A stretch of 64,000 nucleotides of DNA from Vicugna vicugna (GCA_013265495.1 MU058205.1:322312-386311); one strand, 5' to 3'. Counted from the stretch's first letter, positions 16,275-61,960 are shown. Program-made: numbers and translations. Notes: generated by a model from the sequence alone, not told the origin.

Positions 16275-17500
16275 AGTTTGGTGCAGCCATGATGGAAAAC
16301 AGTATGGAGACTCCTCAAAAAACTAAAAATAGACTTACTATGTGATCCAGAAATCCCACTCCTGTGCATGTATATGGAGGGAACTCTAATTCAAAAAGAC
16401 ACATGCACTCCAATGATAGCAGCACTATATACAATAGCCAAGACATGGAAGCAACTTAAATGTCCATCGACAGATGACTGGATAAAGAAATTGTGGTATG
16501 CCTATATAATGGAATATTACTCAGACATAAAAAATAATAAAATAATGCCATTTGCAGCAACATGGATGGACCTAGAGATCATCATTCTAAGTGAAGAAGC
16601 CAGAAGGAGAAATAAAAATACCATATATCACTTATATGTGGAATATTAAAAAGAAAGACAAGTGAACTTATTTATGAAACAGAAACAGACTCACAGACAT
16701 GGTAAACAATCTTGTGGTTACTGGGGGGAAAAGGGGTGGGAAGGGATGAATTTGGGCGTTTGAGGTTTACAAATGTTAGCCACGATATATAAAAATAGAT
16801 AAAAAACAAATTTCTTTTGCATAGTACAGGGAACTATATTCAATATCTTGTAATAACCTTTAATGAAAAAGAATATGAAAATGAATATGTGTATATATAC
16901 ATATGTATGACTGAAACATTATGCTATACACCAGAAATTGACACATTGTAACTGACTGTACTTCAATTTAAAAAAAAAAAAAGGAACGACAGATGACTGG
17001 ATAAAGAAATTGTGGTATGCCTATATAATGGAATATTACTCAGACATAAAAAATAATAAAATAATGCCATTTGCAGCAACATGGATGGACCTAGAGATCA
17101 TCATTCTAAGTGAAGAAGCCAGAAGGAGAAATAAAAATACCATATATCACTTATATGTGGAATATTAAAAAGAAAGACAAGTGAACTTATTTATGAAACA
17201 GAAACAGACTCACAGACATGGTAAACAATCTTGTGGTTACTGGGGGGAAAAGGGGTGGGAAGGGATAAATTTGGGCGTTTGAGATTTGCAAATGTTAACC
17301 ATGATATATAAAAATAGATAAAAAACAAATTTCTTTTGCATAGTACAAGGAACTATATTCAATATCTTGTAATAACCTTTAATGAAAAGGAATATGAAAA
17401 TGAATATGTGTATATATAAATATGTATGACTGAAACATTATGCTATACACCAGAAATTGACACATTGTAACTGACTGTACTTCAATTTAAAAAAAAAAAA
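16275..17500 (+). mobile_element. Young 5'-truncated L1 with poly(A); its last 519 bp are present twice
   Basis: ORF2 C-terminal remnant (KDTCTPM...IAKTWKQLKCPSTDDWIKKLW...MPFAATWMDLE) and poly(A) at ~16970 and ~17489. Confidence 0.9.
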
Positions 17501-17505
17501 AGGAA
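16468..17505 (+). repeat. Tandem duplication, 2 x 519 bp (16468-16986 / 16987-17505)
   Basis: Manual alignment; about 8 substitutions, clustered centrally. Confidence 0.95.
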
Positions 17506-25007: not shown

Positions 25008-25420
25008 CTGTATGCATTGGAGTCGTAGGGCTGCTGTAACAGATTACTACAAACTGGGTGTCTTAGAACACAGAAATTATTCTCTCAGCCATGGAAATCG
25101 GGTTCAAGGTGCCAGCAGGGCTGCGCTCCCTCCGCAGGCTCCAGGGGAGGGTACTCCCTTGCTTCTTCCGGCTTCTGTGGCTCCGGGCACTTCTTGGCTC
25201 TTGGCTGCATCACTCCAAACTGCGTCTCCATCTTTCCCTTCTCTTCCTCTATTATAAGGAAAATTGTCATTGGATTTAGGGCTTATCTTGGTAATCCAGG
25301 ATAATCTCATCTCAAAATCCTTAAATATATCGGAAAAGACTCTATTCCAAATAATGTCTCATTCACAGGTCCCAAGAATTTAGATGTATCTTTTGGGGGC
25401 CACCATTCAACCCACTACAA
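25008..25420 (-). mobile_element. MLT1C-like MaLR solo LTR
   Basis: agggctgctgtaacagattactacaaactgg, taatccaggataatctcatctcaa, gggggccaccattcaacccactaca. Confidence 0.88.
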
Positions 25421-26537: not shown

Positions 26538-27509
26538 ATAATGCTGCAGTGAACATAAGGGTATATATATTTTTTCAAATGAGTTTTTTCATTTTCTTTG
26601 GACAATACCCAGGAATGGAATTTCTGAATCGTATGTAGTTCTATTTTTAACTTTCTCAGTAAACTCCATCCTGTTTTCCATGGCGGCTGTACCACTTTAC
26701 ATTCCCACCAACAATGCACAAGGGTTCCCTTTTCTCTGCATCCTCACCAACACTTGTTATTTGTTGTCTTTTTGACATTCGTCATTTTGACAGGTGTGAG
26801 GTAGTATCTCACTGTGGTTTAATATGCATTTCCCTGATAATTAGTGCTGTAAGCAACTTTTCTGTCTGTTGGCCATCTGTATGTCTTCTTTGGGAAAATG
26901 TCTGTTAAGGTTGTCTGCCCATTTTTTAAGTCAGATTGTTTTTTGATGTTGAGTTGTATGAGTTCTTTGTATATTTTAGATATTAATATAGGTAATAAAA
27001 TATATTTTGTATATTTTAGATTATAATGCTGCAGTGAACATAAGGGTATATATATTTTTTCAAATGAGTTTTTTCATTTTCTTTGGACAATACCCAGGAA
27101 TGGAATTTCTGAATCGTATGTAGTTCTATTTTTAACTTTCTCAGTAAACTCCATCCTGTTTTCCATGGCGGCTGTACCACTTTACATTCCCACCAACAAT
27201 GCACAAGGGTTCCCTTTTCTCTGCATCCTCACCAACACTTGTTATTTGTTGTCTTTTTGACATTCGTCATTTTTAACAGGTGTGAGGTAGTATCTCACTG
27301 TGGTTTGATATGCATTTCCCTGATAATTAGTGCTGTTAAGCAACTTTTCTGTCTGTTGGCCACCTGTATGTCTTCTTTGGGAAAATGTCTGTTAAGGTTG
27401 TCTGCCCATTTTTTAAGTCAGATTGTTTTTTGATGTTGAGTTGTATGAGTTCTTTGTATATTTTAGATATTAATATAAGTAATAAAATATATTTTGTATA
27501 TTTTAGATT
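26538..27509 (+). repeat. Tandem duplication, 2 x ~486 bp (26538-27022 / 27023-27509)
   Basis: Manual alignment; about 5-6 differences. Confidence 0.95.
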
Positions 27510-27731
27510 ATCCCCTTATCTGATACGTCATTTGTGAGTATCTTCTCCCATTTAGTAGGTGGCCTTTTTTTTTTTAAGTCAGATTGTTTTTTGATGTTGA
27601 GTTGTATGAGTTCTTTGTATATTTTAGATATTAATATAAGTAATAAAATATATTTTGTATATTTTAGATTATCCCCTTATCTGATACGTCATTTGTGAGT
27701 ATCTTCTCCCATTTAGTAGGTGGCCTTTTTT
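27409..27731 (+). repeat. Tandem duplication, 2 x ~161 bp joined in a T-tract
   Basis: ttttttaagtcagattg...taggtggcctttttt repeated with no difference seen. Confidence 0.95.
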
Positions 27732-27884: not shown

Positions 27885-30800
27885 TCAGGCATTACATTCA
27901 AGTCTTTAACTCATTTTGGGTTAATTTTTGTGCATGGTGTAAGACAGTGATTCAGTTTCATTCTTTTGCGTGCAGCTGTCCAGTTTTCCCAGCACCATTT
28001 ATTGAAGAGATTGGTCTTTCCCCATTGCATACTCTTGGCCCCTTTGTCATAAATTAACTGACCATATATGCGTGGATTTATTTCTGGGCTCTTGACTCTG
28101 TTCCACTGACCTATGTGTCTGTTTTTATGCCAATATCATACGGTTTTGATTATCCAGCTTTCATTCTTCATGACAGTGCTGTGAGTAGGGAGAGATAGAA
28201 ATCTTGAGGAAAAAAATCACCAGGTACCAGTCCTTAATATACCTCCAGACGTGGGATCTAGTCTGAGCTTAAGTCTCCAAATGTCCACAGTTTCCTGAAA
28301 ATTAAGAAAAAGCCATGTGCTCAAGATTTCTAAAGGTTTCCCCACTCTGTCCTGTGAACTCAGCTTGAGAAGAGAGAAAGAGGGGGTGGCCGGGGGAGAC
28401 CAGCCAATTTCCCAGCCTATGTATTTGTTCTACTCTATTTCCTGCAAACTTCTGAAAACCCACCCCAGGGAGCAATATTGTGTGCATTGCACAGCCCACG
28501 AGTTTTGATCAGGGAAACTGTTGCCTCCAACTGAAAAACAGCCAAAGTTTGGAAACGAATCTCAGAGCAAGAGAGTGGGGGAGAGAATGTCAGAGCTGCC
28601 AGAGGGGGGGAGCAGGAAGGGGTCCCGAGCCCCGCTGTCCATCCCCGGGTCAGTGACCCGCAGGGCGCCTCCCTGTTCCTTCATTTCTTTATGAAGATGA
28701 CTTCACACTGGCTCTTCTCAGAGGCCATTACAGCCCCAGTTCCATCGCACAAGGGGAGGAATCACGAACTTGCTGTAGGAGAGTTTGAACCTCCCAGCCT
28801 TCCGCCCAGCTCCAACGTGTGACTTTTGGCGAAGCTCAGGCTGCCTGCCGTCCGCTTTGGCCCTGCTCTGAGTCCCACCCCCACCCCCATTCAGCTGGGA
28901 GGAAATGCAATCCATGTGTCTGGGACAGAGTCCTCCTGACTCATCACAATGTGTCTTTGTCACGGAGGGTTGAGCTGGCTTCTCCTTGCATCCCCTCAGA
29001 CTCGGGAAGCGCGGGGCCAGCCTCGGGCTCAGAGGAATTGAGGACCCCGTGGGCTCTGACCTTGCAGAAGCCCTAGCTGGGGTCCACCAGCTTCTTGGCT
29101 CTACCTTGGTCTTAACCCATCTCCCATCTCCAGCTACTTGGCCTTCAGCCCCCGAAATCTCCAATGACTCCCTTATGGCCAGTGGTTTAAATGCTAAACA
29201 CCCTTTGCATACATGTCAAGATGACCCACGTGCTGCAAACTGACCAGAAGGTACGGGTAGCGGCTTCCCTCCTCGTCAACTACGAATGTCATGGTGAGCA
29301 CAACACGAATGAGACAGTTGTCAGCAGGTGTGAAAACAGCCACTGCCTCCGGCCCTAGCTCCTTGGCGAGGTCCTGCTCTGTGTCCGTTTGGGCTCCCCT
29401 ACAAGCATCTTGCCTGCAAGGTGTGCTGCGAGCCCGACCCTGTGAGCGCCTCGGCATCGAGCCTTCTGTTCAGTCAGGTGACATGTCCCCCGCAGGGAGG
29501 GGCGGGGCTGAGGGCCCAGCAGGGGCCACACTGAAAGCTCGGCTGGAGGGGAGGGCTTCCGAGACCCCCGTCCTCACACCTCATCATGTAGGTGCTCATG
29601 CCGTCCTTCTAGCAACCACGTGTCCTAAAGACCACTTATTCCACCAATGAAAAATTATTTCTGATACCTCATAGGCTAGCAGGCTCTCTGTGCAGATTTA
29701 TACAATGACATCTTAAGCACTTGCTAAAGCTGCCTGTTGAGTGTTCGTGATCGCTTATTAACCACTCTTAGGGTGTAAAGTTAACGTCTCACTTTTCTAA
29801 ACACGTCACAGGGTCACACGGCAGTATTTTGAAATCTATGGCAAACAGTATTATAGAGTGTTCTGGCCCTAACCAACTTCTTCCAGCTTCTCTCTGATTA
29901 CTTCTCTATACAGACCCCCAAACTCTGGTTAGACTGTCCATTGTCACAAGAATAGAAGAGGTTATTTTTTCTCTGAATTCATTTATTTAAAGATAGAACA
30001 CAGCCATTCAACATCACGGAACACAATATCAACACACGGAATAAATCTGGAGAATTAAATTGAATTGGTGTATTTCATACATTAGTAAATATCTTAAAAG
30101 AAGCAAACAGAGATTTTAAGATCCATTAAGACATGAATGACACAAGTAACTAAGAGTTTCTCCCTAAGTTAACAGTGGAACCACCCGATGTTCAGGTTGA
30201 AAGATTCCCCATCCAGGTAACTTGAATATTTGGCCCAACCCACATGTCCTGCGGGACTGGGGATGCCTCGTGCCTTCCCAGGACTGCCTGGTACTGCCAG
30301 GTGCCTGCCACCATCAGGCATTACATTCAAGTCTTTAACTCATTTTGGGTTAATTTTTGTGCATGGTGTAAGACAGTGATTCAGTTTCATTCTTTTGCGT
30401 GCAGCTGTCCAGTTTTCCCAGCACCATTTATTGAAGAGATTGGTCTTTCCCCATTGCATACTCTTGGCCCCTTTGTCATAAATTAACTGACCATATATGC
30501 GTGGATTTATTTCTGGGCTCTTGACTCTGTTCCACTGACCTATGTGTCTGTTTTTATGCCAATATCATACGGTTTTGATTATCCAGCTTTCATTCTTCAT
30601 GACAGTGCTGTGAGTAGGGAGAGATAGAAATCTTGAGGAAAAAAATCACCAGGTACCAGTCCTTAATATACCTCCAGACGTGGGATCTAGTCTGAGCTTA
30701 AGTCTCCAAATGTCCACAGTTTCCTGAAAATTAAGAAAAAGCCATGTGCTCAAGATTTCTAAAGGTTTCCCCACTCTGTCCTGTGAACTCAGCTTGAGAA

Positions 30801-32742
30801 GAGAGAAAGAGGGGGTGGCCGGGGGAGACCAGCCAATTTCCCAGCCTATGTATTTGTTCTACTCTATTTCCTGCAAACTTCTGAAAACCCACCCCAGGGA
30901 GCAATATTGTGTGCATTGCACAGCCCACGAGTTTTGATCAGGGAAACTGTTGCCTCCAACTGAAAAACAGCCAAAGTTTGGAAACGAATCTCAGAGCAAG
31001 AGAGTGGGGGAGAGAATGTCAGAGCTGCCAGAGGGGGGAGCAGGAAGGGGTCCCGAGCCCCGCAGTCCATCCCCGGGTCAGTGACCCGCAGGGCGCCTCC
31101 CTGTTCCTTCATTTCTTTATGAAGATGACTTCACACTGGCTCTTCTCAGAGGCCATTACAGCCCCAGTTCCATCGCACAAGGGGAGGAATCACGAACTTG
31201 CTGTAGGAGAGTTTGAACCTCCCAGCCTTCCGCCCAGCTCCAACGTGTGACTTTTGGCGAAGCTCAGGCTGCCTGCCGTCTGCTTTGGCCCTGCTCTGAG
31301 TCCCACCCCCACCCCCATTCAGCTGGGAGGAAATGCAATCCATGTGTCTGGGACAGAGTCCTCCTGACTCATCACAATGTGTCTTTGTCACGGAGGGTTG
31401 AGCTGGCTTCTCCTTGCATCCCCTCAGACTCGGGAAGCGCGGGGCCAGCCTCGGGCTCAGAGGAATTGAGGACCCCGTGGGCTCTGACCTTGCAGAAGCC
31501 CTAGCTGGGGTCCACCAGCTTCTTGGCTCTACCTTGGTCTTAACCCATCTCCCCTCTCCAGCTACTTGGCCTTCAGCCCCCGAAATCTCCAATGACTCCC
31601 TTATGGCCAGTGGTTTAAATGCTAAACACCATTTGCATACATGTCAAGATGACCCACGTGCTGCAAACTGACCAGACGGTGCGAGCAGCAGCTTCCCTTC
31701 TCGTCAACCGCGAATGTCACTGTGAGCACAACACGAACAAGACAGTTGTCAGCAGGTATGAAAACAGCCACTGCCCCCGGCCCTAGCGCCTTGGCAAAGT
31801 CCTGCTCTGTGTCCTTTCAGGCTCCCCTACGAGCATCTTGCCCGCAAGGTCCGCTGTGAGCCCGACCCTGTGAGCGCCTCTGCATCAAGCCTTCTGCTCA
31901 GTCAGGAGAGAGCGTCCCCCACAGGGAGGGGCGGAGCTGAGGACCCAGCAGAGGCCGCACTGAAAGCTCGGCTGGAGGGGAGGGCTTCTGAGACCCCCAT
32001 CCTCACACCTCATCATGTAGGTGCTCATGCAGTCTTTCTAGCAACCACGTGTCCTAAAGACCACTTATTCCACCAATGAAAAATTATTTCTGATACCTCA
32101 TAGGCTAGCAGGCTCTCTGTGCAGATTTATACAATGACATCTTAAGCACTTGCTAAAGCTGCCTGTTGAGTGTTCGTGATCGCTTATTAACCACTCTTAG
32201 GGTGTAAAGTTAACGTCTCACTTTTCTAAACACGTCACAGGGTCACATGGCAGTATTTTGAAATCTATGGCAAACAGTATTATAGAGTGTTCTGGCCCTA
32301 ACCAACTTCTTCCAGCTTCTCTCTGATTACTTCTCTATACAGACCCCCAAACTCTGGTTAGACTGTCCATTGTCACAAGAATAGAAGAGGTTATTTTTTC
32401 TCTGAATTCATTTATTTAAAGATAGAACACAGCCATTCAACATCACGGAACACAATATCAACACACGGAATAAATCTGGAGAATTAAATTGAATTGGTGT
32501 ATTTCATACATTAGTAAATATCTTAAAAGAAGCAAACAGAGATTTTAAGATCCATTAAGACATGAATGACACAAGTAACTAAGAGTTTCTCCCTAAGTTA
32601 ACAGTGGAACCACCCGATGTTCAGGTTGAAAGATTCCCCATCCAGGTAACTTGAATATTTGGCCCAACCCACATGTCCTGCGGGACTGGGGATGCCTCGT
32701 GCCTTCCCAGGACTGCCTGGTACTGCCAGGTGCCTGCCACCA
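27885..32742 (+). repeat. Tandem duplication, 2 x 2429 bp (27885-30313 / 30314-32742)
   Basis: Junction ...gtgcctgccacca|tcaggcattacattc...; the ORF track shows paired near-identical ORFs offset by ~2428-2429. Confidence 0.97.
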
Positions 32743-34966: not shown

Positions 34967-35099
34967 TTTTCTTTTTAGGGGTGGAAGTAATTAGGTTTAT
35001 TTGCTTATTTATTGAATTGATTAATGGAGGGACTGAGAATTGAATCTAGGACCTCGTGCATGCTAAGCACAAGCTCTACCACTGAGCTACACCCTCCCC
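34967..35099 (-). mobile_element. tRNA-derived SINE (Vic-1-like)
   Basis: Reverse complement reads ggggagggtgtagctcagtggtagagcttgtgcttagcatgcacgaggtcctagattcaatt (A/B boxes) plus an A-rich tail; imperfect TSD tca(c/g)ttact. Confidence 0.88.
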
Positions 35100-36299
35100 T
35101 CAGTTACTATTTTTGCTTTTTAAAGAATCACAAGTCTGCTGAAAGTACCATTGACAGAGGTGTTGATGGTTATCTTTGATTTTGACTCTCAGTCTGGGCA
35201 TTTCCACACAAACAGGACCACAGATTATGACCCCAGACTAGCATGGGTATGCTAAGTGAGCTTGGAAAAGCACTGATTTCTCTAGGTCACCATTTCCTCC
35301 CTAAAGGATGAGACCGTACCCCCACCTCCCTCCCGCATTGTGGAGACAGACGGACAGAAAGGCATGTTAGAAGGATGTGGCAATCAGTGTTGAAAACGGA
35401 CCATTGACTCTTCTCCCAGGAGATGTGTTTTTCTCACCCCACCACTGCCACCCAGGCCCCCAGGGGCAGGCCAGCCTTTCCCAGAGCACCTGGCCCCTCC
35501 CCACCGCATCCCAAACCTCACCAGCCAGATGAGGCAGGTCGGAGGTCGTCATTCATTTCACAGGGATGTGTGTCAGTTGCGCATCATACGACTCCCCTCT
35601 CTCTGATCCCAGATCCTTGCACATTGCCCACCTGGGCTCAGTGGGCCCCCCAACACCCGCCTGATGGCAACTTCTTCAAGTTGACCTGCAGCAAGGATGC
35701 AAGGGTAGGGGCATTGCCCATCGGAGCTCCCATCTCTGCAAAGAGCAGTGGATTCATCATGAGGACACAGCTAGGGGTGACAGCCCAGAATTCCAAAGGA
35801 GCCCAGGGTCAGGCTCTGAGGACGAGCACCCTGTCCCGCTGGGTTTCCATGTGGACCCAGGATTCATGCCTAATGCCCAGGGCCTGGTGATAAACACAGG
35901 CAGGGGCCCCACCGCACACTCTTCCACCTCCTCCCAGCAGCCGACAGTCCTCCCCTACCTGCCAAGCACCCACAGGACCAGTCACCCACAAGTACTGCAC
36001 ACCTGGTGGCAGGTCTTTTCCCCTCTTAACACTCAGTGCTGAGCTCACCCACTAGGCTGAGCTTGGAAAGAGAACTAGCAATAAATTTCAAATGTGTTCC
36101 ACATAAATGAGAGTAGCAAACATGAGTTGTCCATTGAAAGAGCTAGCTTTTCTATAACCACGTTAGTGTTTTACTAGCAATGAAGTGTTTTACTTGGGAC
36201 TGGAGTGACATGAAAATCACTGTTGCCCAGAGATTTCTCCATTTTTGTTGTCAGGCTTCCACCATTTACCTCTGAACTGCTACCTAAGTCTAATAGTAT

Positions 36300-39200
36300 T
36301 TTCCCCCTTCAGAAAAATACCCGGAAGTGGAATGACTGGATGGTAGGTAGGTCTATTTTTAATTTGGGGGGGAAATTCTATACTGTTTTCCATAGTAGCT
36401 GCACCAATTTCCATTCCCATCAACAGCACACAGGCTTCCCTTTTCTCCACATCCTTACCAACACTTATTATCTGTTGTCTTTGCAGTAATAGCCATTCTG
36501 ACAGTTGTGCAGTGCTATGTCACAGTGGTTTTGATTTGGATTTCCCTGATGATTAGCAACGCTGAGCATCTTTCCATGTGTCTGTTGGTCATTTATATGT
36601 CTTCTTTGGAAAAACGTCTGTTCAGGTCCTCTGATCATTTTGTGATCGGGTTGTTTGTGGTTTGCCTTTGGTTTTGTTTCTGATGTTGAGTTGTATGACT
36701 CGTATGACTTGTCATACGACTTGTATGACATCTTTGTATATGTTAGATATTAGTCCCTTAGGAAAGACACCATTTGCAAATATCTTCTTTCATTCAGTAG
36801 ATGGCCTTTTCATTTTGTTAATTGTTTTCCTTTGCTTGTGAAAGCTTTTTAGTTTAATGCAGTCCCATTTGTTTATTTTTGTCTTTGCTTCCCTTACCTG
36901 AGAAGAAATGTTTTAAAATATTGCTAAGACCAATGTCAAAGAGCGTATTGTTCTTCTAGGAGTTTAAAAGTTTCAGGGTTTACATTTAAGTCTTTAATCC
37001 ATTTGAGTTTATTTTTGTATATAGTGTGAGAAAACAGTCCAGTCCAATTATTTTGCCTGTAACTGTCCAGTATTCCTAACACCATCTATTGAAGAGACTG
37101 TCTTTTCCCCATTGTATATTTTTGCCTCTTTTGTGGTAGATGGATTAACCATATAAATATGGGTTCATTTCTGCTCCATTGATCTATGTGTCTGTTTTTT
37201 TGCCAGTATCATATTTTTATTGCTATAACTTTAAAGTATAGTTTGAAGTCACGGAGTGTAATGCCTTCAGCTTTGTTCTTTCTCAAGATTGTTTTGGCTA
37301 TTTGGAGTCTTTTGTATTTCCAGATAAGTTTTAGAATTATTTGTCTTGGTTCTATAAAAAATGTCATTGGCATTTTGGTAGGGATTGCACTGAATGAGTA
37401 GTTTGCCTTGGGTAATATGGTCATTTTAACAATATTAATTCTTCCAGTGCATGAGCACAGCATATCTTCCCTGTGTCTGTGTCATTTTCAGTTTGTTTGT
37501 TCAGTCTATGTCTTTTACCTCCTGGGTTAGATTTATTCCATGATATTTTATTCTTTACAATGTAATTATAACTGGAATTATTTTCTTAATTTCGCTTTCT
37601 GATAGTTTGTTGTTGGCCAATAGAGGTGTAACAGATTTCTGAATATTAATTCTGAATTGTGAAACTTTACTGAATTCGTTTATCAGTTCTAATAGATTTT
37701 TGGTGGCATATTAGGATTTTCTCTGTTCCGTATCATTTTGTCTGCAGACAGTGACAATTATACTTCTTTCTTTCCAATTTGGATTATTTTTATTCCTTTT
37801 TCTTGAAATAGAAAGTGGCTAGGACTTCCAATACTAAGTAATAAAAGTGGTGAGAGTGGGCTTCCTTGTCTTGCTCCTGATCTTAGAGAAAATGCTTTCA
37901 GTTTTTCACCTCTGAGTATGATGTTGGCTGTAGGTTTGTCTATATGGCCTTTACTGTGTTAAGGTATGTTATCTCTCTCCCTAATTTGTTGAGTTTTATT
38001 CAAAAACGGATGTTGAATTTTGTCAAAAGCTTTTTCTACATCTATTGAGATGATTATATGATTTTTAGTCTTCAATTTGTTAATGTGGTGTATCACACTG
38101 ATGGATTTGTGGATGATGAACCATCCTTGCATTTCTGGAATATATTCCCTTGATAATGGTATATAATCCTTTTAATGCATTTTGCAATTTAGTTTACTAG
38201 TATTTATACTGAGTTGAAGATGTTTTTTGCATCTATGTTCATCAGGAATTGTTGGTGTAAGTTCCTTTTTTTGTAGTGTCTTTGTCTGGTTTTGGTATCA
38301 TAAAATGTGTTTGGATGCATTCTTTCCTCAATTTTTTTTTTTTGAGGATAATTGTTAAACCTTTAAATGTTTGGTAGAATTCACCTGTGAAGCTGTCCCA
38401 TCCAGAACTTTTGTTTCTTTGAAGTTTCTCTTATTATTGATTCAATTTCATACTGGTAATCAGCTAATTTATATTACCTATTTCTTCCTGATCCAATGTG
38501 GGAGATTGTACACTTCAAGGAAGAAATACTTCAGTCATCACTTTCATTCTGTGTGTGTCTTTAAATCTGTAGTGAGTCTTTTATAGGCAGCATGTCTATG
38601 GGTCTTTATTTTTTTTTTTTGATCAACTCAGCTGCTCTGTGTCTTTTGATTGGAGCATTTCTTCCATTTGCATTTAAAGTAATTATTGATAAGTATGTAC
38701 TAATTGCCATTTTATTAATTAGTTTTCAGTTGTTCTGTGATTCTTTTTTTCGTTCCTTTCTTCTTCTCTTGCTTTTCTCCCGTGTGATTTGATGTTTTTA
38801 ACTGCCTTTGGTGTTGTTTTTGGATTCCTTTTTCTTTTGTGTGTGTGTGTGTGTGAGTGTGTGGGTGTACCTGCCATGGATTATTTGTTTTTGGTTACTG
38901 TGAGGTTCAAATATAACTATATATATAGGTGTATATATAGTTACTTTGATGATCTCAAGTTTGAATGTGTTCTAACCACCCTACATTTTATGTACTCCTC
39001 ACGTTTAGTGTTTTGACATCATATTTCACATATTTTTGTTTTGTGTATCCCCTAAATACTTATTGTGGATAAAGATGATTTTACCACTTTGTCCTTTAAC
39101 CTTTATACTAGTTTATAAGTGTTTGATCAACTGCCTTTACTGTATGTTTGATGTTCCCAATGGGATTTTTCCTTTTGTATTTTCATATTTGTAGTGGTGG

Positions 39201-41170
39201 TCTTTTCCACTTAGAGGGAAGTCCCTGTAACATTTCTTGTAAAGCTGGTTCAGTGGTGCTGAAATCTTTTCACTTATACTTGTCTGTAAAACCCTTTCTC
39301 TCTCCTCCAAATCTGTATGATAGCCTTGCTGAGTAGAGTACTCTTGGTTGTAGATTTTTTTTCCTTTCACCACTTTAAATATACTATGCCACTCCCTTCT
39401 GGTCTGCATAGTTTCTGCTGAAAAGTCAGCCAAAAGTCTTATGGGAGTTCCCTGTACATAATTACTTGACTTTTCTCTTGTTGCTCTCTTGTTCTCTCTC
39501 TATCTTTAATTTTTGCCATTTTCATCATAATGTGTCAGTATACACTTCTTTGGTTTTATCTTATTTGGGGCTCTGTCCTTCCTGGACCTGGATATGTTTC
39601 CTTCCCCAAGTTAAGGATGTTCTCAGTTATTATTTCTCCATATAAGTTCTCTGCCCCTTTCTCTCTCTTCTCCTTCGGGAACCCCTTTAATTTGAATGTT
39701 AGTATGCTTACTGTTGTCCCAGAGGTCTCTGAAAATATCATCATTTTTAAATTTGTTTTCCTTTTTTGTTGTTGTTGTTGTTCAACTTTAGTGATTTCCA
39801 TTACTCTATCTTCCAGTTTATTGATCTGTTTCTATATATCATCTAACCTACTCTTGATTCCTTTCAGTGTATTTTTTATTTTATTTATTACATTCTTCAG
39901 GTCTGTTTGGTGTTTCTTTATATTTTCTAACTCTTTTGTTAAACTTCTCACTGTGTTCATTCATTCTTTTGAGTTCTTCAATCATCTTTATGATCATTAC
40001 CTTGAGCTCTTTATCAGGTAGATTGCCTATCTCCACTTCTCTTAGTTCTTCTTCTGGGGTTTTTGTCTTTTTCCTTCATCTGGAACATAGTCTTCTGTCT
40101 CATTTTGCCTAATTCTCTGTGCTTATATCTGTACAACAGGTATGTCAGTTACATTTGACCTTGGAGAAATGACCTCCTGTAGGAGACGTCCTATGCATTC
40201 CAGCAGCACACTCCCTGCTGGTCACCAGAGCTGTATGCTCTAGAGAGTGTCCCTTATGTGGGCTGCATGGAACCTTCTGTTGTGGTGGGCTGACTACTAG
40301 GGGCACCCTGGTAGGTGAGGCCAGTCCCTACCCCTGTTAACTGCCAGGCCCTGCCTTGTGCAGAGGCTGCTGGCCAGCTGGTGGGTGAGGCTGGGTCCTA
40401 GCATGGCTGGATGTGGGGCCCCTGAGGTCCCAGGGCTGATGCCGACCTGCTGGTGGGAAGGGTTGGGTCTCAGGGCAGCCAACTGATTGGCCTTGTGAGT
40501 CCTGCGACTGGTGCCCACTGGCTGGTGGACAGGCAGGCTCCCAGTGCTAATAGGCTAGGGAGAAGACTTCAAATGGCACTTGCTGGCACCTGGGTCGTGG
40601 TGGCAGAAAGCTCCCAGAACGGCCACCACCAGGGTCCATATTTTCAAGGACAGTCCCAGGTGCCTCTGCCTCTCTGGGAGGCTTCCCAAGATCAGCACGT
40701 GGGTCTGAGCAGCTCCTTTCACACTCCTGTCCCTGTGCTGAGACTGCGATTACGTGCGAGGCTGTGCCCCTAGACAGTGGCGTTTGCTTCTACAGCCTTT
40801 GACTCTCCTGCACGCAAGCCCTGCCGGCCTTCAAAGCCCAGCGTCCTGGGAACCCGCTTCCCGGGGCAGGACGCCTGGGCTGGGACGCCCAGTGTGGGGG
40901 TAAGGCCCTTCGCTCCTTGAGGAGGACCTCTGCGACTGTGACCACCCTCCTGTTTGTGGGGCGCCCACTTGAAGGTGTGGGTCTTTGTTAGACGACGTCC
41001 CCACCCCTCCCACTCATCTCACTGGGGCTCCTCCTTTACACCTGCAGTTGTAGATCTTTTCCATGTTTCCGCCTCAGCGTGTTCGCATTGATAGCTGCTC
41101 TGTAAATAGCTTTAATTTTCATGTGCCTGTGGGAGGAGGTGAGCTCAGGGTCTACCTCCTCTGCCATGTT
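36300..41170 (-). mobile_element. Long degraded L1 with 5'UTR, ORF1 and ORF2 remnants
   Basis: ORF1-like ADFSAETMQTRREWHSIFK (39137-39433) and EKGAENLYGEIITEN (39556-39801); ORF2-like [14 protein letters not shown] (37209-37463); GC-rich 5'UTR at ~40.2-41.2 kb; internally deleted. Confidence 0.9.
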
Positions 41171-43490: not shown

Positions 43491-43715
43491 TGGTTCAGTG
43501 CTTTGCAGCTAAAGAAGGGGATAGCCAGGCTACGGAGCTTTATTTTCCTCCAAAAAAAAAAAAATCGTGTGTGTGTGATTTCTTTCCATCTCCTTTCTCC
43601 TTCCCCATATGCTGAAATGCTCTCTAGAGAGAAAAACAACGTGAGAATTTTGAAAAAGCTCCGAGTGATTCTAATATCTTCCCTCGCACCCTCCCTTCCT
43701 GCTTTGGAAACCACA

Positions 43716-44241
43716 GAACAGGAGCAGAATATGATACCCCAAAATGTGCCTCTTTGGCATAAGGATTATTTTGAGCCGATTATTTTTAAAAGACAGCTTT
43801 CCCAGGAGAAGCTCTGAAATCCGAGTGGAAGTTACCCTTCAGTGAGCGATATTTACATTTAGAAAGGAAATCTGCATTGGTAAGGGTGTCACCCTCGCTG
43901 TACCAGGAAAAGGGGGGTGACTCTGAATCTCTGGGAACTCTCATCTGTGGAGAAGGCAATAACCTAAATCTGCATAACAGTTCACTGGCCTTTGTCTGGA
44001 CATCTCCCATAGCTGGCTCCCCACCCTTCACCTTCTTTTGTCTTAGATGGAGGTGTTGGAGGCCGCGGCTGGGTCTTTTGGGGGGTTACTCATTTTCCTG
44101 GGCATCTCCCTTGTATACAGGAGGTCATATGTTATTAAACTTGTGTCTGTTTTCATCCTGTTAATCTGCCCTTTTATTACAGGGAGGGTCTCAGCCAAGA
44201 ACCGGGAAGGGTAGAGGGGAAATTATTTTTCCTCCCCTACC
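43716..44241 (+). mobile_element. ERV1-class solo LTR (MER34/MER39-like)
   Basis: cagaatatgataccccaaaatgtgcctctttggcataaggattattttgag 5' end; attaaa signal; aattatttttcctcccctac 3' end. Confidence 0.75.
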
Positions 44242-44299
44242 CAGGAGCAAGAGCGGGTTCGCAGAGGCAGCCCTGAGGTCTAGGAGGGAGGCCGCCTGC

Positions 44300-45130
44300 C
44301 CACAGGATCAGTTAGTGAGGGAGCCAGGCCAACCGTTCCGGCAACTTGGTGAAACTTGCCCCACGCAGCTCACAGGCCAGGAGCCCCCCCGCCCCCCGCG
44401 CCCCAGTGCTCTGGGGACGCGCCCCGCCCAGCAGGCGAGAGGCAGGCGGGGCCCGGGAGGCAGAGGAGCACGCATGCGCACCTCCACCGAGCCAAAAAAA
44501 AAGCCTGCAGTGAGGTCCCACCTTGGTCACCCAGCCCTGGAGGGGGAGGGACGGTGACATCTGAGCCTCACCCCTGACACACTGCGCACTCTCAGCCAGC
44601 CCAGCGAAGCGACACTGAGCTCCCCGTACAGGGCGCGCAGGGCCTGGCTGGCCTGGGAGGCTGGGGTTTCGAGAACAGTGACCGGGGGCGTGGAGCGGAG
44701 GGCCGAGTCAGGAGGGGACCGAGGGGCAGCGCCTCCGCCGCGCGAGCGTCTCAGGAGCCTAAAAGGCTGAAAAGCCAGCGGGGCTTGGGTGGAGTCGGCC
44801 CTCAGAGGGAGGGGCCAAGCTGCCTGCAAGACAGGGCCCTGCGAGGCCCTCTGAGCGCATTAGCTTGTACAGCGGGTTTCGCCCCTTATCTGTTCCCGGC
44901 ACCTTTCCCGGGGCCGCCTGGGGGGTCGGCCGCAGACCCTGCTGCTGCCTCAGTGACTCAGTCACCCTGAGAAGCCGCTGGCGCGCGCAGCCAGTGATAC
45001 GAGGCCCCTCGACTGTGAGCGCCTCCCAGCACCCAGAGGGCCCTCAGCGCCCGAAAAGGAAGTGCAGCTTCCAGAGGCGCCCGGCCCACTGGGCACCGGG
45101 GTTTGGCGGCTGACCCTGCCCCGGGCCTGT
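44300..45130. promoter_or_regulatory. CpG-rich island / candidate promoter or enhancer
   Basis: Visibly the densest CpG stretch in the window; NRF1-like CGCATGCGCA (44471-44480), GC boxes, AP-1 TGACTCA (44954-44960). Confidence 0.6.
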
Positions 45131-45984
45131 CCACTGAACGTTCTGGCTCAGCATGCACCCAGCTGGCTGTTCCCAGTGCAAAAAGATTTATTCCAGGCCC
45201 TCTTTGGGTGTAAACCACAGAAAAGTGGGGCAAATTGCGTTTACAGACTTGTTAATCAGCCAGTTAGACAAGGTTTGGTTCCATTATAGGGCTTTCCTGT
45301 TCCTCTTCGTTTCTCCACTCAGTCAGCCTTTGGCCGCGTGGTTGCACAGAAACAACCCTGATTTCTCAGGTTTGGTCCAGCTCAGCCACTGAGCCGTGAG
45401 CCTGGGTCTGCTCAGCCTTTGTTCATCATGTAAGTATTTCCGCTATGAAACTTGTCCTCCCTTCTAATGCCAGCATTTGGCAACTGAACACAGAGAAAAG
45501 GCCTTAAGGATGCACTGGAACTGGGAGGTGGTGGGGGTGAGGGCGGGAGAGGGAACCGGGTCCCCTCTTGGGAATCAGCTTCTAGCATCTCAACTGTTTC
45601 TGAAGCCGCTTTTATAAGCTTCTCGGTTACTTCTAAAAACCAGACATTCTATTGCTTGAAATTTTCATGGGATTCAAGGAAAAGATTTACCAGAGTCCTT
45701 AGCTTCAGGCAACTGGAATCTACACTGGCTCAACAGAGATCTAGATAATTCACAGAATTCTCAGGAGGGCTGAAAACAAAACAGACTGTAGGCAGAGCTT
45801 CCAGAATAGGGCTTCTCTCCCAGCGTCACCAAGAGGTCACCCCCTCTGCAGTCACATGCAGTGGATGGGACTTTTAAAATAACAAGAGATAAATTTCTCT
45901 CCCAAGCCATCATTCTTTGAGGCTTTCGGTCACTCTCAGCTAAACATATTTGTGACTAATTAACAGTACATTTGATTTCATCAA

Positions 45985-46444
45985 GTACTTGCCAACTGAA
46001 GAGTGCTGCTCACCACCCAGCTCTGCCAGGACTGAGTCATTCACTACTGCGCTACTGACCTTCAGCACGGCCCTAAGGGAGCTCAGGGACGAGGCACTCT
46101 GTGCTCTGGGAAGATGGGCAGAACAAGTCTTCAGATACATATTTTCAGGAGAAAACTTTATGAACCTGAATTCTTGCATCTTCCCATACTTAGAAAAGAA
46201 CTAAAACCATTAACTAAGGTGTCTTTTCCTTGTGACCAGCTGCAACCTTCTACTAAGATGTGTGCTTACCCCCTTCTTGCATGTACCCCCTTCTCCAAAA
46301 TCATATGTCTACTGACCTCCCCTGATACCTCTTCAGAGCAATTTCTCATCTGAGAGGCTGTCTCCCAGGCTATGGTCCTCAATAGAAACTGAATAAACTC
46401 AATTCACAGCTTTTACTCTGTGTGTGTGTGTGTGTGTGCTGACA
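45985..46444 (+). mobile_element. ERV1-like solo LTR
   Basis: gagaggctgtctcccaggctatggtcctcaata, AATAAA at ~46392, terminal ...gctgaca. Confidence 0.65.
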
Positions 46445-48229
46445 ACACCAAACCCTAATCACTTATTTCTTCTCATTTTTCCAATTCAAATTCATTATTC
46501 ACGTAATACACACTGACTGGCTGCCTTCTGTGTGCTTTGCTCCGTACATCTGGTGCCCTCACGGGAAGACCCAGTGAAGAGCCGTGGTCCTCTGAGACAG
46601 GTTCCCGCAGAGGGGTGTCCCGATGCACCGTGGGAGTGTGTCAGCCGGGCGCCTCTCCAGCCATGCAAGGGGTGGGGAAGGCTTCCCGGGGCTGTCCTCT
46701 GCCGCCTGGGTGCGGGAGGGGAGAAAGGAGTTAGTGCTGAGAGCTCAGCAGGGGCCTGAGCATGGGAAGCCCTGGGAGCCATGGGAGGAGATTTGGGTTT
46801 TATCCTGAGGTTAACGAAGAGCCATTGTCTGAGCTGGGGAAATTGATCAGGTTTGCAGTTAGGAAGCCCCAGCGGGCCGAGCGGTGGCGAGTGGACTGAC
46901 AAGGGCAAGGGCACTCAGGTGAAAGGCTATCTTGGTGTTTTCAGCGGGAGAGGAGCTGGTTTCCGTGTGAAGGCTGCCGGTACCCAGGGCCAGCCGGGGA
47001 AGGGAGAGCCTCAAGGACCACGCACTCAGTCCCCACCCACCCCTCAGTGAACAATCCAGCAGGACAGAGCTGATTGGAGATGAGGGGCTTTTTCTGGGGT
47101 AACTGGTTTTCTCTCATTGTTCCACTTGTGAGTGACTCATAGAATGACAGACCTGGACCCAAGCTTAGAGCCCCCAGTTTTACAGATGAGGACACAGATG
47201 AGCCCAGGGATGCAGCCAAAGTCCTACAGGAGAAGTCGTCCAGCGTGGACCCCGGCCCCCGCCCCCAGCCCTCCGCACCTTGCAGGCAGGCTGCGTGCTA
47301 CTGGAACACGACTTTCTGCTCACACCTCCTGGCATTCGCATCTGCCCTCCTCTCACAGGAATGCCTCTTCCTTTTTCCCTGGTCACCCCCAAGGTTCCTT
47401 CATAGACTGGCTCCAATGCCACACCACCCAGGGCCCCACTGCCCGACCCCTTCTCATGTGGACAGATGCAGACTGGAGGCTTCCAGCACAGAGCTGTTCC
47501 AGCTGCTTTTCTGCCGGGAACACCCTCATGCCCATCGCCTCTCCAGTTTCCAAGACGGCTCCCCCTTGGCCTCTGGTCCTGGCTCAGACGCCTTCTTCAA
47601 GTGCTTCCCTGTCTGTCTTCCACCGCGTTCTCTCTCCCAGTGAACTTGCTTGTTGTTTTCTCAGCACTCATCGCCGACCAGCATTTTATATTTAGTTTTG
47701 ATGTATTTAATTTATTGAAAAAGATGTATTGCCCTCCTACTACATGCCAGGCATGTGTGGATAGATCTGGATTAGTCCAAGATGATTCTGGTGGGAAAAC
47801 TCACCCGACCCGTGGCCAGTGTGGGCCAGCAGGTGGTTTAGGTGTGGACTTGTGGCCCAGCTCTGCTCAGGGTGATGGAGGGGCTGATGGGGAAGCTCCC
47901 TTTGCCCAAAAAGTTAAAAAAAGAAAAAGTGCACAGCAAATAATCATTGCCTTCTCCCTGGGGAAGTTTGTGTAGAGTCAGTGACCCTGAGGCTGCGTGT
48001 CCACCCTGCGGCAACGCGGTGGGCCTGGGGCAGAGGGGCACAATGGACATGAGCCCCACCATGGCAAGGCGCTTCCAAGCCCATCAGCCCACCAGCCATG
48101 TCCATCCTGTTGCTGGAGATCATGAGCTCTTTGGGGTTACTTTTTCTGCTACTGGATCAGGCAAGATGCATTTGGCTAAAAGTAATTAAAAATTTTTTTT
48201 AAAAACCCAACTAGCTAATGACTTAAATC

Positions 48230-56076: not shown

Positions 56077-56205
56077 GGGAGGGGTGGTGTAGCTCAAGTG
56101 GTAGAACACATGCTTAGCACGCAGGAGGTCCTGGGTTCAATCCCCAGTCCCTCCTCTAAAAATAAGTAAGTAGAACTAATTATCTCCCCCTCAAAAAATT
56201 TTTAA
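56077..56205 (+). mobile_element. tRNA-derived SINE (Vic-1-like) with a 16-bp TSD
   Basis: A box tagctcaagtgg, B box ggttcaatccc; TSD aaagctaatt(ct/cc)aaca at 56061-56076 and 56206-56221. Confidence 0.92.
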
Positions 56206-60644: not shown

Positions 60645-61960
60645 CTAGTATCATATGATAAAGAATTTGACTAGCCGTTGTCCCAGGTCCCTGGGAGGGA
60701 GGCTGTATGTTTTTTAACTGAAGTATAGGTGGTTTACAGTGTGCTAATTTCTGGTGTACAGCAAGGTGATTCAGTTATCATGTACATCTATATTCCTTTT
60801 TATATCCTTTTTCATTACAGGCTATTACAAGTTATCGAATATAGTTCCCAGTGCTATACAGTAGGACCTTGTTGTTTATCTATTTTTTTTTAATTGAAGT
60901 ATAGTCAATTTACAATGTTGTGTCAACTTCTGGTGTACAGAATAATGTTTCAGTCACACATGTACATACGTATATCTCCGTGTTCATATTCTTTTTCATT
61001 ATAAGTTACTACAAGATATTGAATACAGTTCCCTGTGCTATACAGGAGGACCTTGTTGTTTATCTATTTCATAGGTAGTAGTTAGTATCTACAAATCCTG
61101 AACTCCCAATTTATTCCTCCACCCCTCCCTTCCCCTGTAACCATAAGCTTGTTTTCTGTGTCTGTGAGTCTGTTTCTGTTCTGTAAACAAATTCATTTGT
61201 GTCATTTTTTTAGATTCCACATATAAGTGATATAATGTGGTATTTTTCTTTCTCTTTCTGGCCTGCTTCACTTAGTATGTTGCTGCCAACAGACTCTATT
61301 CTATTCTAAATCTAAATTTCCCAGGGAATATGAGTGTCCTCATTATTCATGAGCTCCCTGATCACACCTGAGTTTATGCTAATGAGGTGACTCACGTGAC
61401 CCTCCCAGACAGTGTCAGGATGGGCTGGTCATGCTGAAAGACCAACCACGTGATTGATTAGAGGGCTGGGGACTCGAGCCTCTGTTATCAGCCTAACCTC
61501 CCGGCCCCCGGGGAGGGGCGGGGCCTGGATATGGAGTCGTCACACGGCCAGCGAGTCAGTCCATCAGGCAGTGAAACCCCAGTCCAGACTCTGGTCCCTG
61601 AAGCTGGGTGGGCTTCCTGGTTGGTGAATGTATCGATGAGCCTTGATTCCATGGGGAGAGAACACTTGGGGACCCTGCAGAACCTGCCCTAAGGACCTCT
61701 TCATTTGGCTGCTTCTGATTTGTATCTTTTATAATAAAACAGGAAACGTAAATTACAGCACATTCCTGAGTTCTTTGCCTCATTCTAGTGACTTATCACA
61801 CCCAAGGGGATCATGGGAACCGCCCAGATCAGCAGCTGGTCCGTCAGAAATGAGAGCAGTCTTGTTGGAGACCATGCCCTTTAGTGTATGGGGTCCACTC
61901 GGAATCCAGGTGGGTGGTGCTAGGAGTGAATTGCAGAAAACCAGTTGGTGTCAGGATCCA
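60645..61960 (+). mobile_element. MER21C-like LTR interrupted by an L1 insertion
   Basis: ataaagaatttgactag...ccctgggaggga; cacacctgagtttatgctaatgaggtgact; tttataataaaac; gtgaattgcag. Confidence 0.75.
60709..61280 (-). mobile_element. L1 3' end with a doubled terminal ~175-bp unit, nested in the LTR
   Basis: Two diverged tttaa(c/t)tgaagtatag...ccttgttgtttatcta units (60709-60882, 60884-61066). Confidence 0.85.

What the first reader, a model, noticed from the sequence alone, without database searches (positions are those of the whole stretch)
29249..32035. Hyper-divergent ~360-bp core inside an otherwise near-identical 2.43-kb tandem duplication
Seen: aligning 27885-30313 with 30314-32742 by eye gives about 6 differences in ~2070 bp of flank (~0.3%). 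Between 29249-29606 and 31677-32035 there are about 41 differences (~11%), with sharp edges. At some sites one copy has TG and the other CA (gaaTGag/gaaCAag, ttTGgg/ttCAgg), consistent with independent decay of an ancestral CpG and therefore long separate evolution, not random base-call error. Inference, three options: (a) a real duplication whose flanks are homogenised by gene conversion while the core escapes; (b) ectopic conversion of one core by a paralogue elsewhere, implying a dispersed family I do not recognise; (c) two haplotypes concatenated by the assembler, which would still mean an ~11% divergent allelic island. None is ordinary for unique-looking intergenic DNA.
Basis: partly seen in the sequence, partly recalled or inferred. 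Interest (0 to 1): 0.75.

Follow-up and report, generated by a model that had tools for sequence, protein, structure and literature searches.

The report
Probable false duplication with foreign patch
Two side-by-side copies of a non-coding stretch in a camel-family genome do differ sharply in one 360-base patch, but neighbouring repeats show the same pattern, so this is most likely a genome-assembly error that stitched in a piece of an older related sequence, not a new kind of element; reads could not be checked.

Summary
Observation confirmed: 41 differences in a 359-bp core against 6 in 2,071 bp of flank, with natural CpG decay in both copies. No gene, RNA family or third copy in the window explains it. 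Two new facts. (1) A spurious ORF from other public runs (P0001) matches core 2 (3 of 47 codons differ, against 12 for core 1) and runs into the left flank, so core 2 is native and core 1 is an older homologue, 5.7% diverged outside CpG. (2) The window holds four young tandem duplications within 16 kb; the three with differences all have identical ends and a divergent centre of similar depth (3-6%). One repeated process is likelier than three coincidences: an assembler placing both branches of a bubble in tandem (about 0.7). The foreign branch is most likely a paralogue or carried-over camelid sequence (0.5), less likely a true allele (0.2). A real duplication plus gene conversion stays possible (about 0.25). 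Against the artefact: no N at the junction. Reads were not obtained, so depth, junction and genotype are untested. Interest 0.2.

The parts
27885..30313 (+). Copy 1 of the 2,429-bp tandem unit; begins inside an old L1-like repeat
   Evidence: 98.07% to copy 2; its left part and upstream DNA match 36733-37213 at 70%
30314..32742 (+). Copy 2 of the unit; continuous with unique DNA downstream; native version
   Evidence: P0001 matches its core and adjoining left flank
29249..29606 (.). Core 1: the foreign patch, from a homologue about 5.7% diverged outside CpG; non-coding; donor not found
   Evidence: no third copy in the window
31677..32035 (.). Core 2: native sequence, also present in other public runs joined to at least 51 bp of left flank
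   Evidence: P0001/P0004; covers 141 bp of the core only
30313..30314 (.). Blunt junction between the copies: no microhomology, no insert, no N
27885..28603 (.). 719-bp left end, identical in both copies
29820..30313 (.). 494-bp right end, identical in both copies
16468..17505 (+). Duplication A, period 519: 8 differences all within 153 bp (16748-16900), identical ends of 280 and 86 bp, blunt junction
   Evidence: range p 0.001
26538..27511 (+). Duplication B, period 485-487: 5 of 6 differences within 93 bp (26784-26876), identical left end 246 bp, 2-bp microhomology
   Evidence: p 0.026 for 5 of 6; range p 0.055
27409..27731 (+). Duplication C, period 161: no differences

Best explanation
The locus is single-copy non-coding DNA (flank-core 2-flank). 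A second version of this neighbourhood exists, about 4-6% diverged outside CpG (roughly 13-19 My at a recalled rate of 1.5-2.2e-9 per site per year): most likely an old segmental-duplication paralogue elsewhere in the genome, possibly carried-over sequence of another camelid. Where the two versions share exact words an assembly graph forms a bubble. The assembler laid both branches in tandem and gap closing extended each branch into native flank until the extensions were joined bluntly. The result is left flank-FOREIGN core-right flank | left flank-native core-right flank. The same happened at duplications A and B. Shown: the architecture, its recurrence, the native status of core 2, the natural and older origin of core 1. 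Inferred: the assembly step, the donor and its age.
For: All 4 young tandem duplications of the 64 kb start within 11.4 kb (p 0.02, window not chosen at random). 3 of 3 that have differences have identical ends and a clustered centre (A p 0.001, B p 0.026-0.055; D flank-only p 0.048). Centre depths 7/149, 3/96, 17/300 are compatible with one value (chi-square p 0.60). Derived states split between copies in A (3 vs 3 polarised by other L1 copies) and B, so these are two lineages, not one decaying copy. Core 2 differs from P0001 at 3 of 47 codons, core 1 at 12 (p 0.02); core 1 shares none of core 2's 3 differences from P0001. Junctions of A and D are blunt. Periods 161, 485, 519, 2429 lie near common library inserts (170, 500, 800 bp, 2 kb as listed for camelid short-read assemblies in PMC7331169, passage; no claim that the window comes from these): suggestive only. 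False duplications at divergent sites, some joined by wrongly filled gaps, are documented (PMC9516828, passages).
Against: [quoted passage not shown] No read depth, junction read or genotype was obtained (one search gave no data). No donor was found: no genome is held, none in the window, none in two metagenome scans. No core-1-type ORF was returned among 53 candidates or by exact look-up (0 of 5 core-1 ORFs), though a fixed paralogue might have shown; the locus is on only about 5 contigs there, so this is weak. B and C have 2 and 1 bp of microhomology. An old real tandem repeat (184 bp, 80%) exists at 60710, so this DNA does duplicate naturally. The clustering tests are post hoc, and cluster edges set by first and last difference inflate the depths of A and B. 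The species behind P0001 is unknown.
Confidence: 0.5

Rival explanations
1. Heterotype false duplication around a genuine allele: the animal is heterozygous for a 360-bp divergent patch (from an earlier ectopic conversion or a deep haplotype), and the assembler concatenated both haplotypes.
For: Explains why the patch sits in the middle of the unit and why flanks differ at an allele-like 0.3%. Conversion polymorphisms with tracts up to 450 bp (upper bound) are known among human LTRs (PMC4921805, passage). Same assembly evidence as the best explanation.
Against: Needs three separate 100-360-bp patches of similar depth on one animal's haplotypes within 13 kb, separated by near-identical DNA. Donor identity of 89% is low for conversion (recalled threshold about 92-95%). 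X-to-Y tracts were at most 163 bp (PMC5413550, passage).
Confidence: 0.2
2. A real, young tandem duplication whose copy-1 core was then overwritten by non-allelic gene conversion from an old paralogue (option b).
For: No N at the junction. Sharp edges and even spread of differences look like one conversion tract. Core 1 is the foreign one. Earlier unchecked notes report old duplication patchworks in this genome.
Against: The same coincidence of young duplication and central foreign tract would be needed at A and B. Blunt junction; low donor identity; no donor found.
Confidence: 0.15
3. An old tandem duplication (13-19 My) whose flanks were recently homogenised while the core escaped, perhaps by selection (option a).
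For: Needs no outside donor, and none was found. Both cores are CpG-rich (o/e about 0.5), so a regulatory role is conceivable.
Against: Homogenisation would have to reach both ends of the unit exactly (719 and 494 identical bp) and recur at A and B. No reading frame is open across the core in both copies and no frame shows a synonymous excess (best 11 synonymous to 14 non-synonymous).
Confidence: 0.08
4. Exon-limited conversion (or mis-polishing) from a processed copy: the core is an exon of a minus-strand non-coding transcript and was replaced from a retrocopy or cDNA, which would give both sharp edges at once.
For: The differences stop 3 bases inside an AG ending at 29609 and 5 bases before CTG|GTCAGT at 29244 on the minus strand; a donor this good occurs at 0.0022 per base (rough recalled matrix).
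Against: The acceptor has no pyrimidine tract; the donor is only in the top 4.4% of GT sites; found post hoc. P0001 reads through the donor unspliced. It does not explain A and B.
Confidence: 0.04
5. In-place hypermutation of core 1 in a young duplicate (APOBEC-like or recombination-linked).
For: Strand asymmetry: T/C 10 and G/A 13 against C/T 4 and A/G 4 (Fisher p 0.012, post hoc).
Against: 10 CpGs survive only in core 1 and 8 only in core 2; core 1 keeps ancestral residues where core 2 is derived; weak/strong changes are balanced, 21 vs 16 (counted).
Confidence: 0.02

Closest known systems
False duplications in vertebrate assemblies, heterotype and homotype (Ko et al. 2022, PMC9516828; passages seen)
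   Same: Adjacent near-identical copies at a site of raised divergence; can be joined by wrongly filled gaps.
   Different: No assembly gap here; depth, pairs and k-mer copy number untested; the divergent branch looks paralogous or foreign (5.7% non-CpG), deeper than ordinary heterozygosity.
Non-allelic gene conversion tracts (human LTRs, PMC4921805; X-to-Y hotspots, PMC5413550; passages seen)
   Same: Short sharp-edged cluster of differences in near-identical surroundings; these papers note that such tracts and mis-assigned reads are easily confused.
   Different: A 358-bp minimum tract with 41 differences is longer and denser than those reported there (minimum 1-86 bp, maximum up to 163 or 450 bp); no donor identified; the core is not a recognisable LTR.
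Old camelid segmental-duplication patchworks (pseudogene-rich blocks in PMC13751797, passages; earlier scan notes e1-8043316, e1-7855986, unchecked)
   Same: A plausible source of a paralogue about 5% diverged.
   Different: No gene fragment was recognised in this window, and no paralogue of it was seen.

Membership tests
False duplication (PMC9516828) | Half (or very low) read depth over each copy | not testable with these tools
   No read data obtained
False duplication (PMC9516828) | Assembly gap between the copies (usual, not universal) | tested here: not met
   0 N in 64,000 bases; the paper also reports joins by incorrect gap filling. So not filed as a proven member.
False duplication (PMC9516828) | Discordant or spanning read pairs; no junction reads | not testable with these tools
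   No read data obtained
False duplication (PMC9516828) | One-copy, haplotype-specific k-mers | tested here: inconclusive
   Best runs hold 0.59-0.72 of sampled words (14 runs); a single-copy allele could reach 0.83-0.88 before polymorphism, both copies 1.0; background recall unknown
Non-allelic gene conversion tract | Sharp-edged cluster of differences in near-identical flanks | tested here: met
Non-allelic gene conversion tract | A donor identical to the derived state exists elsewhere | tested here: inconclusive
   None in the window; genome not held; 0 matches in 2 metagenome scans
Non-allelic gene conversion tract | One copy native, the other foreign | tested here: met
   P0001 differs from core 2 at 3 and from core 1 at 12 of 47 codons; 141 of 358 bp covered
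Non-allelic gene conversion tract | The converted molecule exists in vivo (reads join core 1 to native flanks) | not testable with these tools
   No read data obtained
Coding exon or recognisable pseudogene | Frame open in both copies with synonymous excess | tested here: not met
   Stops in all six frames over the longer segment; best frame 11 synonymous to 14 non-synonymous
Coding exon or recognisable pseudogene | Similarity to a known protein | tested here: not met
   Pfam 0 of 14 ORFs and 0 of 12 read-through frames; PDB no hit below E 1.3; protein searches on 3 of 6 frames gave only the spurious ORF P0001 and two unrelated weak hits
Laminin-type EGF / netrin-G relic (resemblance recalled from memory) | Significant match to LE-domain proteins | tested here: not met
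Dispersed repeat or structured RNA | Rfam match, further copies, or target-site duplication with poly-A or LTR ends | tested here: inconclusive
   No Rfam hit in the core; no third copy in the window; only a 7-bp direct repeat near both edges; no mammalian repeat library was available

The most novel reading that the evidence does not exclude
Core 1 and the divergent centres of duplications A and B are real, segregating relics of one deeply diverged haplotype (about 5% outside CpG, near the depth of the split between Old and New World camels), i.e. islands of ancient ghost introgression or long-term balanced variation eroded to 100-360 bp across 13 kb, exposed because they broke the assembly.
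Probability: 0.05. Interest if true: 0.7.

Novelty: not a real feature. Interest (0 to 1): 0.2.

Why it matters
If the best explanation holds, it matters only as a warning: gap-free tandem duplications with a divergent centre in this assembly should not be read as biology, and 'identical ends plus divergent middle' is a cheap flag for them. If the duplication is real, it is one more case of ectopic conversion, unusual for its low donor identity (89%) and dense 358-bp tract, in non-coding DNA with no known function. Only the allelic deep-haplotype reading would surprise a specialist, because it would point to very old foreign ancestry or balanced variation in camelids.

Tried and rejected
Reads: one search returned no data, so depth, junction and genotype are open. 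The small shares happen to equal the word share of one or two cores (0.078 each), but any 350-650 bp would give this. Whole-genome search: no genome held. Metagenome scans with a motif shared by both cores and one specific to core 1: 0 matches each. Coding origin: Pfam on 14 ORFs of the unit and 12 read-through frames, and on 221 of the 227 window ORFs of 80 aa or more (4 of the other 6 were scanned and 2 overlapping junction-side or unit ORFs are counted among these calls as listed there), gave nothing but an L1 ORF1 remnant below cut-off and four chance-level hits. PDB, protein searches and ESM Atlas (unnamed bacterial and PAS-like clusters at 0.89-0.94 with low shared-feature counts, treated as chance; none) gave nothing. 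By-eye likenesses to GPCRs, PADI and laminin EGF domains (recalled) were not supported. P0002 and P0003 (E about 1e-4) are unrelated repeat proteins. Exact look-up of 10 core ORFs: 0 of 10. Only 3 of 6 frames of the core went to the large protein collections. APOBEC context and GC-biased conversion were considered from the list and not supported. Exon prediction with rough recalled splice matrices gave 11 candidates, none convincing, not followed. Earlier findings: nothing near this place, by sequence or in relatives. Literature: 8 searches; none gave a paper on this locus, a measured genome-wide camel-alpaca divergence, or a direct description of gap-closing duplicates matching insert sizes; that step is my inference. 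Supplements were not read.

Full report
Observation. The unit 27885-30313 is repeated at 30314-32742 with 47 differences: 41 in the core (29249-29606 / 31677-32035; 11.4%) and 6 in 2,071 bp of flank (0.29%; Fisher p 5e-29). Random placement never put more than 20 of 47 in such a window in 20,000 trials. The changes look like real evolution: 31 transitions to 9 transversions, two TG/CA pairs, 10 CpGs kept only in core 1 and 8 only in core 2. Outside CpG-class sites the divergence is 17 of 300, 5.7% (CI 3.3-8.9%), so the headline 11% is about half CpG decay. The junction is blunt and the window has no N.

What the core is. Non-coding, GC- and CpG-rich DNA (o/e about 0.5). No frame stays open across it in both copies and none shows a synonymous excess. 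Pfam, PDB, Rfam, ESM Atlas and two large protein collections name nothing (three of six frames went to the large collections). There is no third copy in the window. The window as a whole showed no convincing gene. That the organism is a South American camelid comes from earlier unchecked scan notes, not from a test of mine.

Which core is native. The HMMER search returned P0001, a 64-aa gene-caller ORF from public run contigs (4 contigs; its cluster mate P0004 on 1), 95% identical to a minus-strand frame of core 2. It is useful as a tracer of DNA, not as a protein. Over 47 core codons it differs from core 2 at 3 and from core 1 at 12; the cores differ at 14. It runs on for 17 codons into the left flank and carries copy 2's letter at 29203/31631. 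Core 1 agrees with P0001 at 2 codons where core 2 differs and shares none of core 2's 3 differences. So core 2 with its flank exists outside this assembly, and core 1 branched off earlier than the source of P0001: it is a foreign homologue, not a hypermutated young copy. Inference: if P0001 were as distant as the Old/New World camel split (11-25 My, PMC13751797 passage), core 1 would be over 50 My old, too old for 5.7%; so P0001 is probably a close relative and core 1 is about 13-19 My old at a recalled neutral rate. No core-1-type ORF was found, but the locus is on only about five contigs there, so this says little. The test covers 141 of 358 bp.

The neighbourhood. An exact 24-mer scan finds four young tandem duplications in 64 kb, periods 519, 485-487, 161 and 2429, all between 16468 and 32742 (p 0.02 for such grouping, with the caveat that the window was selected). 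The three that have differences share one architecture: identical ends and a clustered centre. A: 8 differences in 153 of 519 bp (p 0.001). B: 5 of 6 in 93 of 487 bp (p 0.026; range test 0.055). D: ends of 719 and 494 identical bp. Their centres differ at 7/149, 3/96 and 17/300 non-CpG sites, compatible with one depth (p 0.60; A and B are inflated by how their edges are set). Other L1 copies in the window show derived letters in both copies of A and of B. A duplication that simply ages gathers differences evenly; these do not.

How it most likely arose. One repeated process explains this best. Two versions of this region exist, about 4-6% apart. In an assembly graph they form short bubbles; if both branches are laid in tandem and each is extended into native flank, the product is identical ends, a foreign centre in one copy and a blunt join. 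False duplications at divergent sites, usually across a gap but sometimes joined by wrong gap filling, are documented (PMC9516828, passages). The periods lie near common short-read insert sizes (PMC7331169, passage); this is suggestive only and I do not assign the window to any assembly. I give the tandem arrangement about 0.7 of being an artefact: 0.5 with a non-allelic branch (paralogue, or carried-over sequence of another camelid; I cannot separate these), 0.2 with a true allele.

Against this reading. There is no gap at any junction. No reads were obtained, so three of the four published marks of a false duplication are untested or inconclusive and the fourth (a gap) is not met. No donor was seen. 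B and C have 1-2 bp of microhomology, and an old real tandem repeat lies at 60710-61069. The clustering tests are post hoc. A real young duplication with ectopic conversion (0.15) fits the core alone well; conversion tracts up to a few hundred bases are known (PMC4921805, PMC5413550, passages), but it needs the same coincidence at A and B. An old duplication with homogenised flanks (0.08) needs no donor but needs both ends of three units reset. The near match of the core's edges to minus-strand AG and GTCAGT sites keeps a retrocopy- or cDNA-templated version alive at 0.04; P0001 reads through that donor unspliced.

Unexplained. The strand asymmetry of transitions (core 1 richer in G and T, core 2 in A and C; p 0.012, post hoc) would fit long evolution of the two cores in opposite orientations relative to transcription or replication, i.e. 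a donor at another locus, but may be chance.

Papers. Passages found by term: PMC9516828, PMC7331169, PMC6598621 (methods only, not used as evidence), PMC5413550, PMC4921805, PMC13751797. Others were seen only as search listings. No supplements were read. The conversion identity threshold, mutation rates, splice matrices and repeat names are recalled.

Verdict. The pattern is in the assembly, and core 1 is real DNA from somewhere, but the tandem arrangement is probably not real and no function is indicated. Interest 0.2. The boldest reading left open, allelic islands of a deeply diverged camelid haplotype, has probability about 0.05 and would deserve 0.7.

Noticed in passing
window 16468-17505, 26538-27511, 27409-27731: Three more young tandem duplications, all in L1-like 3' ends; A and B have identical ends and clustered central differences.
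   Followed up: yes
window 29245-29608 vs 31673-32037: Opposite strand asymmetry of transitions between the cores (T/C 10, G/A 13 vs C/T 4, A/G 4; p 0.012 post hoc).
   Followed up: partly
window 29244 and 29609 (minus strand); 29225-29231 and 29616-29622: Core edges fall just inside a GTCAGT donor-like and a weak AG acceptor-like site; a 7-bp direct repeat CCACGTG lies near both edges.
   Followed up: partly
window 28604-29203: Five of the six flank differences lie in the 645 bp left of the core; none in the first 719 bp.
   Followed up: partly
window 60710-61069: Older 184-bp tandem repeat at 80% identity in an L1-like 3' end: probably a real duplication.
   Followed up: no
window 44001-45000: CpG-island-like stretch (GC 0.64; o/e 0.47-0.59) with no gene recognised nearby.
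   Followed up: no
window 39140-39499 (-) and about 40200-41130: L1 ORF1 remnant (Pfam PF17490, E 4.5e-4, below cut-off) next to a GC-rich stretch that looks like an L1 5' end (by eye, recalled).
   Followed up: no
window 35026-35096 (-) and 56083-56155 (+): Weak tRNA matches (34 and 36 bits), probably heads of tRNA-derived SINEs (recalled).
   Followed up: no
window about 43690-44240 and 45950-46450; 25020-25420: Stretches that look by eye like solo LTRs (names recalled, not tested).
   Followed up: no
window 35620-35900 (-): A frame with a faint by-eye likeness to a GPCR helix; no Pfam hit on overlapping ORFs.
   Followed up: partly
   Followed up: no
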